Assembly (NCBI GenBank): GCA_000182565.2
Contig: KQ257467.1
Source: Spizellomyces punctatus DAOM BR117
Lineage: Eukaryota
Direction: 5' to 3' (one strand)
Length of the DNA: 64,000 bases
In this document: positions 7,789 to 41,428 of the stretch, one piece after another
Position numbering within the stretch: the first letter of the stretch is position 1
How the letters are laid out: every line of letters starts with the position of its first letter
Notes under the pieces: model-generated
The model's database searches: none
What the model was told of the DNA's origin: nothing
Seen by the model: only the letters and a program-made list of their open reading frames with translations
Program-made: the position numbers and the translations under genes

Positions 7789-10700
7789 CTACCCGACTGC
7801 ACCCAACTTGTGTGCCCCACCCGCACCCCCCAACTTGATCAAAGCACTCTCATACTCTTTTTTAAAAGGTCCAAAGCGTGCAACCAAACAATGATAATTA
7901 TGTCTCAAATGGGGTGGGATCATGGTTAATGTCAAGCAATCGGGGGACGGAAGGCGAGGTGGTGGTGGAAGAGAAGAATCAGTTGGATCAAATTGCATAG
8001 AATGACGAACCAGTTCTCCTTGAAGGACTTGAAGGTACTCTTCGGCTTTCATGACACCGAATCGTTTTTCTAGTGCTTCGCGGCCACCGGGTCCTCGGGT
8101 ATCATTTGAACCTTCTTCTTCGACGTGGGTGGTGGTGTTGGTATAGGGGTGGGTATCTTTTAGGCGTTCACGGCCTTTACGTTGTCCCATGATGATGTGT
8201 TCGAGGTGGGTGGGGTGGGAGGTACGTACTTCTTGGAGGTGTTCGCGTTCAACGCGGTCCATGATGAGAGCAAATGTTCGCATGGTGATACCGGTGGGGT
8301 TAAGGTCGTTTGAGCTGGCGTAGGACCATAAGAGTGTGCCGTGGTGGGTGTTCCATTCTCCGAGAATAAATGCGACCATGGTTCGGTCGTTTTCGAGTGG
8401 TGGTGTTGTAGAAGGGTTTTCGTGAGGGGAGGAGCCTTCGGTGCTTCCGTCGGCGCTGTTGGCTCGAGATGGACGTTTGGTTTTATGTCGACGGGGTTTG
8501 GATGCTGCAATGTATGCGCAAGCTAGGTATCGTCTCACGTGTCCTTGCTCGGTCTCGGCGGCGGGTGGGGTCGCAGAGGGTGTACTGGATGGCCATTCGG
8601 TGCGTCCGACAATGCGTTCGCAAACTTCTTCCCAGAGTTGACTTCTTTTCATTAGTTTCTCCCAACTCCCAATGTCCTCTACTTGCTCCATGTATCGAGG
8701 GGTGGCTAGTACAACCAGCTTTCCTTCGACATAAAGTCCTTTGACATTTTTGAGAATGCTGTCGACCGTTGATTTGGGATGCTGGTCAAGCAGCTCATCA
8801 GGGACGCGCCAAATGTCGAATTCAAATGGTCCATTGCCGAGACGAATGTGGGGGAGGAGGCAGGTTTTGCGGCTGGATGCAAACAGTTGTATCGGGCGCC
8901 ACTTGCCAGTTCGATGTTTATTTCCTCCTCCGCATTCGGTGCAAAAGGCGTACTTTGCCGTGCATGCTATAGAAAATATTAAAACATGATTTTAACCTCA
9001 ACGGAATGCTAGCAGGAAAAGTTCTTTTGTTTGTGGTGTGGATAAACAGAAATAAAACATACCTGGACAAATGTACTCTGTGCCAAAAGCAGGTTCAATC
9101 CACTGTCCACGGACAGACACTGTATGTTCAGAGCCATTGACTGTCGTCTTTGTCACCGGCACACCAATCTCATCACCCACTAATCGCATTCCCCCGACTC
9201 CAATATCATTTTTACAAACTTCGCAGTGGATAACGCGTTCCCTAGGATTTCGCCAGACCCTTTTACGCCTATTTTTAAGAGCAGGCTCGTCGGGCGCGGC
9301 ACCCCTTTTGGCCGCACATGGTAAACAGACGACATCAGATGCGTATGTAGCTGCTAGTTGATGTTCGCGCCCAAATATATGGGCACGGGCAATGTTCACG
9401 GAGCATTGAGTGCACAGCACTTCTTCCTCTAGGAACATACGCCTTTTGCATTGGGATGATTTCAACAATGTAGCTTTACGTGGGTATATGTGAACTGTAC
9501 GAGAGCCGGACGATGCAGACGGCGACGTCTCCGTAATGTCCTTGCTTGCAATATTGCTTGTTGGGACAGTCTCCCGCGGAGAGTGTGACTTCCCGAGGGA
9601 TGGTGTGACATGCGAATGTTTACGCACGTGAGGCGGTGACTCATCGGACCTTACCCTCCGAACGTTAATTTCTTGTGGTTCCGACTCAGCCAGGAACTCA
9701 ACAACATCCTTTCCAACAGCTGAGCCAGGACTATCGTCCATGCGAAGGGATTTCAATGTGCATTCACTCTGCTGAGAGGTTGGTGAGTGTACCAGCGGAT
9801 CATCTACATCGATCTCCGAGTTCGCGCGACTAGAGCGGTCTCCGCCTTTTGGGGAATAGTTGACATCCAACCACGACATGGCTCGTTCAATTTCGTGCAG
9901 GGGCTTTGGCGCATTACTAGCATCCCATCGACTTGTCGCTGACTGCTTCAACAAATGAAATTTTGAGTTGGAATTGGGCATCAGTCCAGGTTATATATAT
10001 GATGTTGTACAAAGCGTATTTCTTTGCAGCAGCGAGCATGTACATGTAGACACATTCGGCAAGATTGGTTACATACCTGGCCAGTGGTCCGAGGTACATC
10101 AAAGTCCATGATACACGGCGCGGATGCCACAGCTTGTGACTCCGTCGCAGCTGTTGTCACAGTGTCGTTGATGAAAGCAAGGTACTCTCCCACTTCATCC
10201 ATCACCTGCCGACAGGATGATTCAAGACCCAGTCTTTGAGGCCCGTGAAGCGTTGGATCCACAAGATTGTCCAGAACAGCTGTATCCTCTTGATCAGCAG
10301 CGTATTGAGATCCCATTGTGTCCAATACGGCGCCATTGGATGGTCGAGGTGACGAGAAGGCGGCAGGTCTATTGTAGGTGGTTTGCGGCCAATATGGTAC
10401 GGACGATGGAGTCCAGGTGCCCAAAGATTGCCATGGCGCATGATAAGGTTTGTCGAATTGAAAGTGCGGGAAGGTACTGGTGACCGTGTTACTGACAGGT
10501 GTATATGATGGTTGATGCGTTTGTTGCGATGGGTTAAATTCGGATGAATGATGCGAGTGGAGATGTGGTGGATGGCTGGACAGCGGTCGTATGGACGGAG
10601 CGTATGGCGGTGCAGTGTCCGTATCTTCAGGAAAGTAAAAACGCATAGCATGGGCAAGAAACAGAGAGAAACCAAAGAATCAGTTAGCCTTTTAACCATC

Positions 10701-11337
10701 AATGACAGAGAAAACGGATGGCTGCAAAAGGCCCTTGGTGAAATACCAACAAAAAAAAAAAAAAAAAAAAGATGAATGACTACGTACAATGCGGCGGAGG
10801 AAAGCCCCTTGGCGGTCCAGGAGACTGCCGAGCACCATCATACGATAAAGCTGACACATTTACATAGCGAAGACTGGGCGAATCTGGTCCAACAGAGTAC
10901 TGCCCGGAAGCAGAACTGCGGTCTGCCATCAGATCGTAAAGATCGGCAGAGTATACGTTGGAGGGAACAGATATGAACGGTGCCATATAGCGCATTGTAA
11001 AAGCATCTCCGTGATCATGAAGCGCAGGATTTCCAGCGATCCTACTCTGATCCACTTGAGAAACACTGCTGCTCGAGTCCACACGATGGCTTTCCGCTGA
11101 TATCTCACGATGTGTAGATTGTGTTCCTTGCGGATATACCTCGTCCCAATCTGGGCCGTACGGAACCCATTCTCCAAGCGATCCAGTCAACATGTTGGCC
11201 TCCGTTGTTGCTTCCGTCGTCGTTGCCGCGGTACTGCTCCTTCCGATGTTGTCGTCGTTGTTGAACGTCACCAAATAAGGTTGTGAATACATCGGAGGGC
11301 CCTGGCTGCACGTGTCCTCGCCTTTGAACCCAGGCAT
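7789..11337 (-). CDS. Uncharacterised multi-CxxC zinc-binding protein with GNAT-like C-terminal domain (paralog A, about 1051 aa)
   Basis: Exons 11337-10788, 10624-10077, 9942-9063 and 8966-7789 join in phase via GT..AG introns (3156 nt); motifs CTQC, CLPC, RRKR, CEVC, CPAC, FCTECGGGNKHRTGKWRPIQLF, TCLLPHIRLG; clearly paralogous to 37084-39629. Confidence 0.78.
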
Positions 11338-34117: not shown

Positions 34118-36751
<2,634 letters not shown>

Positions 36752-37083
36752 TTGGAAGAACGTGGGGGTTATTCGTGTTTGTAAATAAAAAAAAAGGATT
36801 TTTACAAGGCTTCTGGCGCAAGTTTATCAGACGGAGCAAGCTGCACAAAGCGCCTCTGGTTTTTTCCTTTTTTTCAAAGGGACCGGAGAATGCTGTTTTT
36901 TTTTTCCATTCTATTCCACAAATGTACGTTACTCTGCATCCGTCCACTCTGATACATTCTCTTCCAGTCCATCCATCCGCTGGAAACAGACAGATGCAAC
37001 ATACCAAAATACTTGCCAAAAACATACCCGTTTGAGTCCACACTTTATGTCAAAAACCCCAAACCCCCAACATGAACAGAATT

Positions 37084-39629
37084 CTACCTCCAAACCCCTC
37101 TATACCCTCCACCTATCCCACATCCCCCAACACCCCCATTCCTCTCCCTCTCCCCCTCCCTCAAAAACTCATGCACAGAACAAACAAAACATCTAAATAA
37201 ATCCCTGGGAACATGAACCTCCCTCTCAAACAAACTTTTATCTACACCAGGGTTCATCCTCACATACTCATCCAAAGGTTTGAACCCCATTCGTTCTACA
37301 TACGATTGAACACGGAGGTGATCTCTTCTCGCGAGCATCCAGACGTGTTTGACGGGGACAGGGGCTTGGACGGTTGCAGAATCTGTTAGACATTGTCGGA
37401 GGAGGCGTTCGTGCATGCCGCGGAGGATGGGGAGGGTGGAGACGGTTGTGGTTCGGACATAACCGTTGGCGAAGAGGACGGTACCGGTGCTAATATCCCA
37501 TTCGGCGGATCCGTAGGCGACTTGGATACGAGGGGAGTCGTGATCGGGTGTAGTTGCTGTGCCGGATGGTGAGGAGGATTCAAAGGAAGGAGATGCGGAG
37601 GGAGTTGATGTTGACGATGGGGTGGTTTGGGGAGGAGGTAACCCCGGACCAGTGGAATGAGGGTTTTTGGCATTCGCTTTGATGCGTTTGATCGTTGCAC
37701 CCCTGACGCGCGATTGGGGTTTCTCAACGTACACAACAGCCAGGTACCGTCTTAATCCGCGAGTCTTTTCCACATCCTCTCTTAAAAGGCGTTCGGCCGA
37801 CCTCCACCCCTTGTTGGCCCATTCTTCCACTTTTGCGTACGATTCCAGTTGGGTGATGGCGGCTTCAATGACCTCGGGCGTGGCGTATAGCCCATAGAAT
37901 CCGTCCATGTGAACTTCGCGGGACTCGTTATACAGCGATTCGCATACGTTGGTGGGGGTCAAGTAGACTTCATAGGTAACAGGGGCGCCACCGAGACGGA
38001 CGTGGCTCAAGAGGCACGTACGGCGGTTAGATGCAAAGAGTTCGACAGGCCGGTACTTGCCCGTGCGGAATTTACCGCCGCCTCCGCACTATTCAAAGTT
38101 CCACCATCAACGTCTGCATGATCAAAGCAACTTGGTGAAAACGTACACTACTCACCTCTGTACAAAATTTGTATTTTACCCGACAAGAAGCACAGATGGG
38201 TTCCACTCGGAAATCCATAGCCTCTTCCACCATGGCTCCGTCTTCGTCCCGCACCTTTCCGCCAACACCAATAGCTTGGAGCTCTCGCTCTTCGGAAAAC
38301 TTGAACCCACCACTTCCTATCCTCCGCTTGCAAATCTCACAATCCATGCCATAATCGTCATGTAAGCGCTTGCGACGCCCGGCTAATACCATGGACGTAT
38401 CATCCACCTCCAAAGAATCTTTGCGGCCTTCACAGGATACGCACAAAATGTCGACGGCAAAATTGAGTGGAGGAACATTTTTGCTCTCGGGATGTAAAAG
38501 GAAAGTTGCAATTTCGTTTTTGCAGCGCTTGCAATGGACAGTGTGGTCAATGATCTTTTTGCGACCGCTTGTGTCGCGGGTAGATTTGTTGGGAGTGGAG
38601 GGACGGGCAGGAGCGAATTTGGCGGAGCTTCGGCGCTGTTGGGTGGATGAGTCATGTTGCGCAGACCGTTGGTCTGGTTGAGGGATGATGGAAAACGTCA
38701 AGGAATTCGGCCCTTGCGAGGTCATTGGACGGGCTGTTGGAGTTGATAACGTCGAAGGTGGCAAGTGTTGCTGGGTGTTTGTTCCAGTGTGCAGTATTTG
38801 GGATGGCAGAGGAGGTGACGGCAAATGGTATGGGGGAAGAATTGAGACATTTGGAGATGATGCGCGTACATATTGCGGGGTAGGAGGTGTCGGAAGTCCA
38901 GCCGTGTTCTCTGCCAATGGTAAAGGATTCCATTGATCCGTAAAAAAGTCTTCAATGTTCTGATATGCAGGTAACCCGGCCTGCAAGGTTTCATCATACC
39001 GGAACTCTGCCGGTAGGCCTTGTGCTGGAGAGAACTGCCCCATGTTCTCGCTGAGCGGGCGGCGAATCAAATGCCGCCGAAGAAGCAAATTCAGGAGATT
39101 GGAAAAGTTCGTCCAGAGGCATGGGAGTCTGCAGATCGTGCAAGAAATTTGTGTAATCAACAAACGAAGAGGAGATGGGGACGGGAGTAGGTTGCGCCCA
39201 TGTTGAAGGAGGAGCAGAGAATTGTACGGGAAATTGGAAATTTACAAGGTTGGTGAGGGTGACTGGAAGTTCTGCTTGCGATACTGGGGATGGATCCTTG
39301 ATCGGCGGCGGAGGTATTGGATCTACAATGTTTAGAGAAAAGAGCGGAATTTGGTTCAGTTTTCCTCTAGTGTTCCAAAATCATTTCTGGACCCAACCTG
39401 ACGAAGTTGGAGTATGGCCAGCACCACTCCCACAGACGTCCGCTTTTTGGATACTATCCCTCAATCTCAAAATTTCCAATTCCAGTTCCTTTGTTTTTCG
39501 AATTTCCTCCTGTCTCTTTCGTTCTTCTTCCAAGACTCTTAGGACGAGTTCGAGCTGCGGCCCGACTTGACGGCCCTCATGCTGATCTTCGAGGGGCTGT
39601 CGCATGAGGGAAGGAAGAAATTGGTCCAT
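37084..39629 (-). CDS. Uncharacterised multi-CxxC zinc-binding protein with GNAT-like C-terminal domain (paralog B)
   Basis: Intron 38155-38089 joins ICASCRVKYKFCTE to CGGGGKFRTGKYRPVELFASNRRTCLLSHVRLG; also CKRC, CVSC, RRKR and CEIC; C-terminal VKHVWMLARRDHLRVQSYVERMGF; 5' introns 39397-39323 and 38999-38960 are tentative. Confidence 0.78.
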
Positions 39630-41428
39630 TGCAGGCTGAAAAGCCAGTAACGTGGAAGGAATAAAGGTGCGAGACTTGGAGCAAAAAGGATTGGAGGCCC
39701 AGGTTTCTTTACGTGCTCCCCGTCGCTTGGAACGTCATTTGAAATACAACCAAAAGTTCCTTTGCGGATTCGAATGCTCCCGTCCAACCTCTTCCAATAC
39801 CCGCTTCCTCAACTTGCTTTGGCTATCTGTTTTCTAAATTCTAACTGCTGGGATTGCTTGAACAAAAAAAACAAATCTCGTTAAAAAAGCAACTTGCCTT
39901 TTCCTTTTCCAAAACTTGTTTTGAGCCCTCCAAAACGACCGTGAGTGGCTTAGTATCATAGCGTGACTCATCCAACATCTTTGACTTGCAATTGGAACAG
40001 TTTCATCAATCATCATTAAAAGCGATGGGATTTTGGAAACGATGTTTTTGTTAAAAGAAGAGTTGGGGAAGTGATATATGGGCAGGTTGTTTGATGACTT
40101 GTTGCATTGGTACAGTTTCGATGGAATTTGGAGATGTGTGCTAAAAAGGTTGATCTTGGCATGAAGATGAACACATCCATGGAGGTGGATTGTTATCTAG
40201 TCCAGTCAAACCAATCAGACCTTTGGAACAAAACAAAACCGTTTTTCACAAATGATATTGTTGGCCAGCTGGGTATCCATTTGCTATCAATGCTAAAAGT
40301 TACGTATTTCAAAGCAAAAGGTCACTCAGAAACATCCTTCTGTTACGAATCCAAAAAAAAAAAAGTGACGCACCCTTGCAAGTGTGTCAACAAACCTCTT
40401 TTAGATTGGTGCTGGCCCATGGTACTATCGCATTCATAGGCAAGTGATCAACGAACCGACCGTCTGCATCGGCTGCTTGCACGAGTATAAAGGTCATTTG
40501 GAACCTTTGGGTGAAACAAAAACGGGCTTGAATCACTTTTAAGACTTGTAGCAACCTGCATTGTTGCTAATTGTTTATCCATGGGCACAATACGTCGCGC
40601 TGGGACGTTTGAAAGAAGCCAAAAGGAATAGCGAGTGTATCAGGAATTTGGTAAGAGGTTTTCTCCTTTCCTCGCCCTTGTCGAGCGCTCCGCTACACAT
40701 GCACCCGATGGCCGTTGATGTCCCAACCATCTAATTCATTTTGATAGTCTGTTGGTCGTGACCCGTACGGCCACAAGCGCACTCACCTGTAGCGGACCTG
40801 TGGACTAGCGTATGTGCGTTTTTGGGTTTGGCATCCATGTCATCCTTTGGGGATTGTTTATAATTGTGGTTTGCCATCTCCTTTACACGTGCTACTGTTG
40901 CCTTTGAGTCTTGGATCAAATGGAAAAAGGTTCATTGTGGGCATTCTTGAATGATTTGAAATCGCCCAAAAGGACCACATCCCAAAACAACGTTCGTTCG
41001 CCCGCCCATGGCGCCGTGCGATCGGTTTCATGAATGGTGTTTTGTAGAAGGACAGGGCGGGGAAGGCGCTTGCAAGTCTTATAGCCAATATGGCAAGTCG
41101 TTTTTGGCCAAAATGTCATTGAGCTGAGGACATTTGTCAGCTCAGAAGTTTAAAACAAGAGTCAGCTCTTAGCTTTCAGAAAATACTTCTTTTTTCGTGT
41201 CCGATTCGCTCGGATTTCCGTATTTTTATTATTGGCGAGTGCAATGGGCAGGCATTTTCGATGAAGGGTGCGCTGTGCAGCATCATTTGTCAGCTGGGTT
41301 TGATATGTAGGAGAGATATCTATGCAATTTCTATAAAAGCTGGCGATATGCATTGCTTTCCCTCACCCATTGACAAGTGTGCATAACCTACATACTTTAC
41401 ACATAATTCCTTATACCTTTTTCACACC

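What the first reader, a model, noticed from the sequence alone, without database searches (positions are those of the whole stretch)
37084..39629. Second, anciently diverged member of the same zinc-cluster/GNAT-like family, paralog B
Seen: the same ordered motifs (CKRC, CVSC, RRKR, CEICKRRIGSGG, CASCRVKYKFCTECGGGGKFRTGKYRPVELFASNRRTCLLSHVRLG, ATPE, RRYLA, VAYGSAEWD..GT), on the same strand about 26 kb away, with an unrelated N-terminus and a different intron position in the core (after CTE, phase 0, versus within CPAC, phase 1). VKHVWMLARRDHLRVQSYVERMGF resembles GNAT motif B (..YxxxGF). Inference: two old paralogs in 64 kb imply a large genome-wide expansion; the shared invariant residues mark the functional core.
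Basis: partly seen in the sequence, partly recalled or inferred. Interest (0 to 1): 0.8.

Follow-up and report, generated by a model that had tools for sequence, protein, structure and literature searches.

The report
Unnamed fungal zinc-module GNAT-fold protein family
This chytrid gene belongs to an old, unnamed fungal family that joins cysteine-rich, probably zinc-binding units to an acetyltransferase-type (GNAT) fold whose usual acetyl-CoA loop is missing in this copy, so what it does remains open.

Summary
Window 37084-39629 (minus strand) is SPPG_07993 of Spizellomyces punctatus. It shares its ordered motifs with a second gene at about 7789-11193: 25% identity, E 3.5e-31. The two introns in the core lie at different places.

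Residues 327-601 of the model are a complete GNAT fold. The best solved match has Z 14.4, and all 50 listed matches are GNATs. No Pfam model reaches threshold for this protein. The acetyl-CoA loop Q/RxxGxG/A is absent here. It is canonical in only 7 of 79 aligned relatives.

Before the fold lie five near-invariant CxxC pairs plus Cys/His. I read these as three inferred zinc sites. Two of the units are an internal repeat, and the module has no solved structural match.

The family has 273 cluster representatives. Every name I looked up is a chytrid or a basidiomycete "hypothetical protein". S. punctatus has at least four old paralogs, which is a modest family and not a large expansion. The annotated start codon is probably too far downstream.

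My verdict is a real, unannotated variant of the GNAT superfamily. It is moderately interesting, and its activity is untested.

The parts
37084..38088 (-). Last coding exon of paralog B (SPPG_07993), residues 297-630 plus the stop at 37084-37086. It starts with CGGGGKFRTGKYRP.
   Evidence: Open frame. 100% identical to P0001.
38089..38155 (-). Intron of 67 nt, GT..AG, phase 0, after the CTE codon.
   Evidence: Sequence. The motif CTECGGGG is contiguous in 15 of the 23 relatives then held, by one strict pattern.
38156..39043 (-). Coding exon from the annotated ATG (39043) to CTE. It holds a disordered N-terminal part and zinc units 1 and 2.
39399..39629 (-). Upstream conserved exon (MDQFLPS...LELEILRLRDSIQKA), helical by its heptad pattern, missing from the database model. 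Its donor site and its link to the next exon are unresolved.
   Evidence: 5 of 8 orthologues match 39456-39635 at E 5e-12 to 7e-10. 194 stop-free splice combinations are possible.
38429..38551 (-). Zinc unit 1 (residues 165-205: C171, C174, C201, C204).
   Evidence: Cys conserved in 71-73 of 79. pLDDT about 90.
38174..38350 (-). Zinc unit 2 (residues 232-290: C235, C238, C284, C287), an internal repeat of unit 1.
   Evidence: hhalign of unit 1 against unit 2: probability 88.5%, E 2.7e-6. Cys in 76-78 of 79.
37990..38173 (-). Third Cys/His site and the Gly-Lys-Arg loop (residues 291-329: C294, C297, GGGGKxRTGKxRP, C321, H325, R327). This is the most conserved part of the family and it spans the intron.
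   Evidence: C297, G298-300, T320, C321, H325 and R327 are invariant in 79 of 79.
37141..37989 (-). GNAT-fold domain (residues 330-612).
   Evidence: AlphaFold2 pLDDT mostly above 90. VIA-align Z 14.4, rmsd 3.3, 160 aligned to 3fix_A; all 50 listed rows are GNATs.
37537..37695 (-). Disordered Ser/Thr/Pro-rich insert (residues 428-480) between strands beta2 and beta3 of the GNAT fold.
   Evidence: pLDDT 44-51.
37372..37482 (-). beta4-alpha3 region, where GNAT motif A should be. It reads VRTTTVSTLPILRG, with no glycine.
37279..37347 (-). beta5-alpha4, motif B-like (KHVWMLARRDHLRVQSYVERMGF).
7789..11193 (-). Paralog A. Last exon 7789-8966, intron 8967-9062 (phase 1, within CP|AC), upstream exons up to about 11193.

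Best explanation
SPPG_07993 is an intact, transcribed member of an unnamed fungal protein family. Its parts, in order, are:
- a short helical N-terminal exon;
- a long disordered region;
- two repeated four-cysteine units (inferred zinc sites 1 and 2), separated by a disordered linker with a conserved RKR;
- a third Cys2-Cys-His site that holds an invariant Gly-Lys-Arg-rich loop;
- a complete GNAT fold with a 53-residue disordered insert.

Shown: the architecture, the fold, the conservation, the paralogy and the taxonomic range.

Inferred: the ancestor was an ordinary acyl-CoA-dependent N-acyltransferase, because one clade keeps textbook motifs A and B. The zinc module, which is folded with high confidence alongside the catalytic domain in one model, would hold or select a macromolecular substrate, most likely a protein and perhaps in the nucleus.

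In paralog B the glycines of the pyrophosphate-binding loop are replaced (STLPIL where the canonical clade has QSQGIA). It therefore either binds its cofactor in a changed way or has weak or no transferase activity. I put about 0.4 on B being an active acyl-CoA transferase.
For: Identity and intactness: 100% match to P0001 over 334 aa. The orthologues P0002-P0006 are 47-58% identical over 93-96% of the query.

Transcription: in RNA run X5, reads whose first mate lies on the minus strand pile up just downstream of the stop (depth 78-158 at 36900-37101). Sparse reads of the same orientation cover the gene body, with none of the other orientation from 37102 to 39626.

Fold: pLDDT is above 90 for most of 161-427 and 481-615. 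VIA-align gives Z 14.4 to 11.1 for the 50 listed chains, all GNATs, and 199 chains reach Z>=8. All the Foldseek top rows are GNATs, with best E 1.2e-3.

Family link to true GNATs: PF00583 is above its cut-off in 2 of 49 relatives (P0033 at 22.1 bits, P0048 at 23.6 bits; cut-off 20.7) and just below it in P0010 (18.0 bits). The same clade carries QSQGIA-type motif A at the beta4-alpha3 position in 7 of 79 rows.

Metal ligands: 10 Cys and 1 His are present in 71-79 of 79 rows.

Internal repeat: hhalign probability 88.5%, E 2.7e-6.

Constraint on the altered loop: R-x4-[ST]-[TN]-[LF]-x-I-L-R is kept across the B clade.
Against: No Pfam GNAT model hits B itself, even at E<=1. A family profile finds no GNAT among PDB sequences at E<=10. 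No Foldseek match reaches E<=0.001. B has no Q/RxxGxG/A at beta4-alpha3, and Pro and Leu sit where Gly and Ala/Gly should be, which argues against canonical acetyl-CoA binding. Zinc binding, cofactor binding, substrate and localisation are all untested, and I had no model coordinates to check ligand geometry. The RNA evidence comes from one run read at about 6%, most of whose reads fit only partly (518 of 563), and no splice junction was seen.
Confidence: 0.55

Rival explanations
1. Paralog B is a pseudoenzyme. The GNAT fold survives only as a binding or scaffolding module, for example partnering an active paralog or reading a modified substrate, and no acyl transfer occurs.
For: Motif A glycines are lost in B and in most of the family: only 7 of 79 rows are canonical at that position. 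The family's invariant residues lie in the third Cys/His site and its loop, not in the GNAT core. Four old paralogs coexist in one genome.
Against: Motif B-like alpha4 (H..V..Y.ER.GF) and the alpha1 block LYAxPxxxE remain conserved. The altered loop is itself conserved across the B clade, which fits a working pocket as well as a dead one. Some active GNATs deviate from the motif A consensus (recalled, not tested here).
Confidence: 0.3
2. The protein is a DNA- or RNA-binding regulator. The cysteine module and the basic loop bind nucleic acid, and the GNAT-like domain senses a small ligand.
For: There are many Cys pairs, a conserved RKR and a K/R-rich invariant loop, long disordered regions and an N-terminal helical exon. 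A weak, sub-threshold resemblance exists to Sgf11 and TFIIS-type zinc elements.
Against: No match to any DNA-binding zinc family. There is no Zn2Cys6 hit at E<=1. The zinc module has no solved structural neighbour: best Z 3.1, best Foldseek E 1.7.
Confidence: 0.1
3. The protein is a small-molecule acyltransferase, for example acting on a polyamine or another amine, rather than on a protein.
For: The nearest solved structures are small bacterial and archaeal GNATs of unknown or small-molecule substrate. One relative's gene model (P0029) runs into a flavin amine oxidase domain.
Against: That fusion is 1 of 49 scanned relatives. It overlaps the end of the family core and sits on a 9.6-kb draft contig, so it is probably two merged genes. 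The Z scores for histone and N-terminal acetyltransferases (12-13) tie with the rest. A large zinc module and disordered regions are unusual for metabolic GNATs (general knowledge).
Confidence: 0.08

Closest known systems
GNAT (GCN5-related N-acetyltransferase) superfamily. Nearest solved examples here: Ta0374 (3fix), 2q7b, 8osp
   Same: Complete beta1-alpha1-alpha2-beta2-beta3-beta4-alpha3-beta5-alpha4-beta6 topology. Z 14.4-13.7, with 158-160 residues aligned out of chains of 164-174. Motif B-like helix ending in GF. Some paralogs pass the Pfam PF00583 cut-off.
   Different: B fails every Pfam GNAT model and lacks the Q/RxxGxG/A loop. It has a 53-residue disordered insert between beta2 and beta3, and about 170 residues of cysteine-rich module are fused in front.
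Eukaryotic protein acetyltransferases of the GNAT fold: Gcn5 (1ygh, 6cw3, 9ynv), NatD/Naa40 (4ua3), Naa50 (4xnh), KKT23 (9evq)
   Same: Fold match at Z 12.1-12.8. Eukaryotic proteins with long disordered regions.
   Different: These scores tie with dozens of unrelated GNATs, so no specific kinship is shown. There is no bromodomain, no Ada2-type partner signature and no sequence similarity (6-15% identity).
Eco1/ESCO cohesin acetyltransferases and MYST acetyltransferases, which combine a zinc finger with an acetyltransferase core (recalled from knowledge, not tested here)
   Same: The idea of a zinc-binding element packed next to an acetyl-CoA-dependent catalytic core.
   Different: Those have one C2H2 or C2HC finger. 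This family has five CxxC pairs plus Cys/His (three inferred sites) and an invariant GGGGKxRTGKxRP loop. Neither appears among the 50 rows listed, which does not exclude them.
Fungal Zn2Cys6 binuclear 'zinc cluster' (Gal4 type)
   Same: Fungal and cysteine-rich. C284-x2-C287-x6-C294 recalls the first half of the Gal4 spacing.
   Different: The rest of the spacing does not fit. There is no Pfam Zn_clus hit at E<=1. This is not a member.

Membership tests
GNAT superfamily (fold level) | Mixed alpha/beta fold with the order beta1-alpha1-alpha2-beta2-beta3-beta4-alpha3-beta5-alpha4-beta6 | tested here: met
   The DSSP elements of the model follow this order. Z 14.4, rmsd 3.3, 160 of 165 residues aligned to 3fix_A, and all 50 listed rows are GNATs.
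GNAT superfamily (sequence level) | Motif A Q/R-x-x-G-x-G/A at the beta4-alpha3 turn (the acetyl-CoA pyrophosphate loop) | tested here: not met
   B reads VRTTTVSTLPILRG, with no Gly. The motif is canonical (QSQGIA type) at this position in 7 of 79 aligned relatives. Five more rows match the pattern elsewhere in the stretch.
GNAT superfamily (sequence level) | Motif B: beta5-alpha4 helix ending ..Y/F-x-x-x-G-F | tested here: met
   HVWMLARRDHLRVQSYVERMGF lies on beta5 (544-550) and alpha4 (554-562). G564 is present in 67 of 79 rows and F565 in 64 of 79.
Pfam Acetyltransf_1 (PF00583) | Score at or above the gathering cut-off of 20.7 bits | tested here: not met
   No hit for B's exons at E<=1 or for P0001 at E<=0.01. 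Met by 2 of 49 relatives.
Active acetyltransferase | Binds acyl-CoA and transfers the acyl group | not testable with these tools
   No coordinates, docking or assay were available.
Fungal Zn2Cys6 zinc cluster (PF00172) | C-x2-C-x6-C-x5-12-C-x2-C-x6-8-C and a Pfam match | tested here: not met
   Cys positions are 171, 174, 201, 204, 235, 238, 284, 287, 294, 297 and 321. No Pfam hit at E<=1.
Zinc ribbon / treble-clef type zinc modules | Structural match of the CxxC knuckles to a known zinc fold | tested here: inconclusive
   For the model of residues 132-296 (pLDDT 81), the best VIA Z is 3.1 among 48,161 chains and the best Foldseek E is 1.7. Units this small are hard to match. The knuckle-plus-helix pattern resembles a treble clef by eye only.
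EAPP C-terminal domain (PF10238) | Score at or above 25 bits | tested here: not met
   15.7 bits for B's exon. 20.3 bits for 1 of 49 relatives.

The most novel reading that the evidence does not exclude
The duplicated four-cysteine units and the invariant, metal-tethered GGGGKxRTGKxRP loop form a new kind of module with no solved counterpart. In most members, B included, this module has taken over cofactor or substrate-phosphate binding from the lost GNAT glycine loop. That would give a new mechanistic class of GNAT-fold enzyme, or a pseudo-GNAT reader, restricted to chytrids and some basidiomycete lineages.
Probability: 0.2. Interest if true: 0.65.

Novelty: new variant of a known kind. Interest (0 to 1): 0.45.

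Why it matters
Chytrids are poorly annotated. This is a conserved multi-copy family, with at least four old paralogs in a chytrid that can be genetically transformed (recalled, not checked here), and it has no name, no Pfam model and no mention in the searched literature.

The family offers a natural series running from canonical to degenerate acetyl-CoA loops on a single scaffold. That makes it useful for asking how GNATs become pseudoenzymes or change cofactor. It also offers a cysteine-rich module with no solved structural counterpart.

The work also corrects a gene model, which probably lacks its conserved first exon.

Tried and rejected
Whole-assembly paralog count: no genome is held for this window, so the count of four is a lower bound taken from protein databases.

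Sequence-profile search of PDB with the 79-row alignment: 12 sequences at E<=10, all low-complexity or tiny zinc-finger matches, and no GNAT.

Protein-language-model look-alikes:
- The GNAT part gave GNAT clusters at only 0.82-0.86. These are leads, below the 0.9 level.
- The zinc part gave generic small zinc proteins at 0.76-0.79, which is noise level.

Profile search of the 5.8-billion-protein set: only the 8000 candidates sharing most words were scored, and 21 hits came back, so it could not list all S. punctatus members.

RNA:
- No RNA holder was listed by the index.
- The one raw-read RNA run that I laid (X5) gave a 3' pile and sparse body reads but no joints. It settles neither the intron nor the 5' exon link.
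- Runs X2-X4 are contigs colinear with the genome, intron included, and of unknown kind. They are not informative.

Resolving the 5' gene structure from splice signals: 194 stop-free one- or two-intron models link the upstream exon to the annotated frame, and none stands out. An assembly indel is also possible.

Fusions as functional hints: P0029 (amine oxidase), P0162 ('cytochrome c') and P0081 ('TOM40') look like merged neighbouring gene models.

Literature: four full-text searches, of which I saw only the listings. There were no hits for the five locus tags searched (SPPG_07993, SPPG_07003, SPPG_08619, DACRYDRAFT_23169, RHOSPDRAFT_35569), and none of the listed titles is about this family. 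Supplementary tables were not searched, so a mention in an expression table cannot be excluded.

Complex prediction was not used, because no binding claim is made.

Full report
WHAT IS THERE

The window is from Spizellomyces punctatus DAOM BR117. The last exon of the flagged gene is 100% identical to the database protein SPPG_07993 (P0001, 630 aa; taxonomy).

On the minus strand the coding parts are:
- a last exon at 37084-38088, with the stop at 37084-37086;
- a 67-nt GT..AG intron at 38089-38155;
- an exon running up to the annotated ATG at 39043.

The intron falls in phase 0 between CTE and CGGGG.

THE SECOND COPY

tblastn of the core against the window finds one other locus, 8158-9441 on the minus strand, at 25% identity over 460 columns and E 3.5e-31. 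The next hit has E 0.37.

That gene, paralog A, runs from about 11193 to 7789, as shown by its 74-89% identical Spizellomyces 'palustris' orthologue P0022. It has a 96-nt intron at 8967-9062 inside the Ala codon of CPAC (phase 1), and no intron after CTE.

THE GENE MODEL IS PROBABLY TOO SHORT

Five of eight B orthologues (P0002-P0006, but not P0024, P0007 or P0008) have an N-terminal segment that matches window 39456-39635 at E 5e-12 to 7e-10 and 48-85% identity. The segment is a heptad-patterned helix (LELVLRVLEEERKRQEEIRKTKELELEILRLR) with no Pfam match.

Linking it to the annotated frame needs at least one intron and a change of frame between about 39400 and 39046. There are 194 stop-free combinations, so I cannot say which is used. 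An assembly indel is also possible.

EXPRESSION

The index listed no RNA run that holds the stretch. One raw-read RNA run of the same species label (X5, read at about 6%) puts reads just downstream of the stop. Depth is 78-158 at 36900-37101, with the first mate on the minus strand. It also puts a thin scatter (0-1.4) of the same orientation across the gene and the upstream exon, with none of the other orientation from 37102 to 39626.

This looks like a 3'-biased library that detects this mRNA. The evidence is weak: 518 of 563 laid reads fit only partly, and no splice joint was seen.

THE FAMILY

phmmer of the last exon against 1.84 billion cluster representatives gives 273 proteins at E<=1e-3, 111 at E<=1e-10 and 10 at E<=1e-30.

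Every name I obtained is a 'hypothetical' or 'uncharacterized' protein. There are four exceptions: one UniRef label, 'N-acetyltransferase domain-containing' (P0010), and three likely merged models. The named organisms are chytrids (about 25 species) and basidiomycetes (Rhodotorula, Microbotryum, Sporobolomyces, Pseudohyphozyma, Meredithblackwellia, Phaffia, Calocera, Dacryopinax). The assignment of these genera to phyla is from my own knowledge, except for the three I looked up. Only about 60 of the 273 proteins were named, so the range is a minimum.

Four literature searches found nothing on the family (I saw the listings only).

HOW MANY COPIES, AND HOW OLD

S. punctatus has at least four members: A, B, SPPG_07003 (P0165) and SPPG_08619 (P0040). 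The three named proteins are 27-31% identical to one another. All carry the same five CxxC pairs and the core motif, shown for A through its S. 'palustris' orthologue P0022. They lie on contigs of three different lengths. S. 'palustris' also has a member of a further clade (P0033).

In a FastTree of 140 full-length cores, B sits in an 11-row clade (local support 99) with Phlyctochytrium arcticum, Fimicolochytrium, Powellomyces, Geranomyces, Polychytrium, Cladochytrium and Quaeritorhiza. The A orthologues (P0022 and P0023, pair support 99) lie elsewhere. The window's own A row failed my full-length filter and was left out, so P0022 stands in for it.

The A/B split is therefore older than these lineages. 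'Anciently diverged' is right. 'Large expansion' is not shown: this is a modest, old multigene family. In P. arcticum, A and B lie on different contigs, so the 26-kb linkage is not conserved there.

THE C-TERMINAL HALF IS A GNAT FOLD

AlphaFold2 with the 79-row alignment gives pLDDT above 90 for most of 161-427 and 481-615. Residues 1-155, 428-480 and 616-630 are disordered.

VIA-align against 48,161 PDB representatives aligns residues 327-601 to GNAT enzymes. The best is 3fix_A at Z 14.4, rmsd 3.3, with 160 of 165 residues aligned. All 50 listed rows are GNATs (Z 14.4-11.1), and 199 chains reach Z>=8. The Foldseek top rows are also all GNATs, but none reaches E<=0.001; the best is 1.2e-3.

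At the sequence level B is invisible to Pfam, and the family profile finds no GNAT in PDB. Three of 49 relatives touch PF00583, two of them above the cut-off. These three belong to the one clade that carries a textbook motif A (VMQSVQSQGIAKR) and motif B (N..M..F.EK.GF).

MOTIF A IS MISSING IN B

At the beta4-alpha3 turn, B has VRTTTVSTLPILRG. Aligned to QSQGIA it reads STLPIL, with Pro for the first Gly and Leu for the Ala/Gly. Only 7 of 79 rows are canonical at this position. Five more match the pattern elsewhere in the stretch. Paralog A keeps NPTGIT, and deeper B-clade members keep a Gly (TTLGIL in Cladochytrium). The altered loop is conserved within the B clade, so it is under constraint, but canonical pyrophosphate binding is doubtful.

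THE N-TERMINAL CORE IS A CYSTEINE-RICH MODULE WITHOUT A KNOWN COUNTERPART

C171, C174, C201, C204, C235, C238, C284, C287, C294, C297, C321 and H325 are present in 71-79 of 79 rows. C297, G298-300, T320, C321, H325 and R327 are invariant.

Units 165-205 and 232-290 are an internal repeat (hhalign probability 88.5%, E 2.7e-6). In each, a CxxC knuckle sits between two strands and a second CxxC opens a short helix.

I infer three four-ligand sites: 171/174/201/204, 235/238/284/287 and 294/297/321/325. The pairing and the identity of the metal are inference, because no coordinates were available to me.

A separate model of residues 132-296 (pLDDT 81) has no solved neighbour. The best VIA Z is 3.1 and the best Foldseek E is 1.7. 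That is weak evidence of novelty, since small zinc units match poorly.

It is not a Zn2Cys6 cluster. Sub-threshold Pfam touches on Eapp_C and Sgf11 are not membership.

HOW IT MOST LIKELY WORKS

The canonical clade indicates an ancestral acyl-CoA-dependent N-acyltransferase. The zinc module and the invariant Gly-Lys-Arg loop are modelled as one confident unit with the GNAT domain (pTM 0.68 despite about 200 disordered residues). They most plausibly position a macromolecular substrate.

A conserved RKR in a disordered linker, long Ser/Thr/Pro-rich regions and an N-terminal helix fit a nuclear regulatory protein. This part is inference only.

For B itself I give about 0.4 to real transferase activity and about 0.3 to a pseudoenzyme role. 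The nucleic-acid-binding and small-molecule readings are minor rivals.

VERDICT

This is a real, conserved and unannotated family, a new variant within the GNAT superfamily. Its interpretation is mostly right on paralogy and GNAT likeness, wrong on 'zinc cluster' in the Gal4 sense, and overstated on expansion. Interest is moderate.

Noticed in passing
window 34653-36751 (+), N run 35948-36330: The convergent neighbouring gene is a Cef1/CDC5-type splicing factor (Pfam Myb_Cef, 103.6 bits). A 383-base assembly gap interrupts its coding frame.
   Followed up: partly
window 39043-39629 (-): The database model of SPPG_07993 starts at 39043 and omits a conserved upstream exon beginning at 39629. The connecting splice pattern or frame is unresolved.
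   Followed up: partly
window about 8080-8160 (-), paralog A: Compared with its S. 'palustris' orthologue, paralog A carries an extra stretch of about 26 residues (HPYTNTTT...GPGGREA) inside the motif B region of its GNAT domain. I did not check whether it is a real insertion or an unrecognised intron.
   Followed up: no
P0029, P0162, P0081 (relatives, not in the window): Three family members are annotated as fusions with an amine oxidase, a cytochrome c and TOM40. In P0029 the family core overlaps the start of the oxidase domain, so these look like merged gene models.
   Followed up: partly
P0002, P0023, P0050 (Phlyctochytrium arcticum): NCBI taxonomy files this species under Chytridiales. 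Yet its B protein is the closest relative of the S. punctatus protein, closer than those of the Spizellomycetales genera Powellomyces, Geranomyces and Fimicolochytrium. This hints at a misplaced name.
   Followed up: no
window 36900-37200: RNA run X5 piles reads only in this stretch, and most of them fit the window only partly, with ragged loose ends of low agreement. This suggests a 3'-tag type library or adapter remnants.
   Followed up: no
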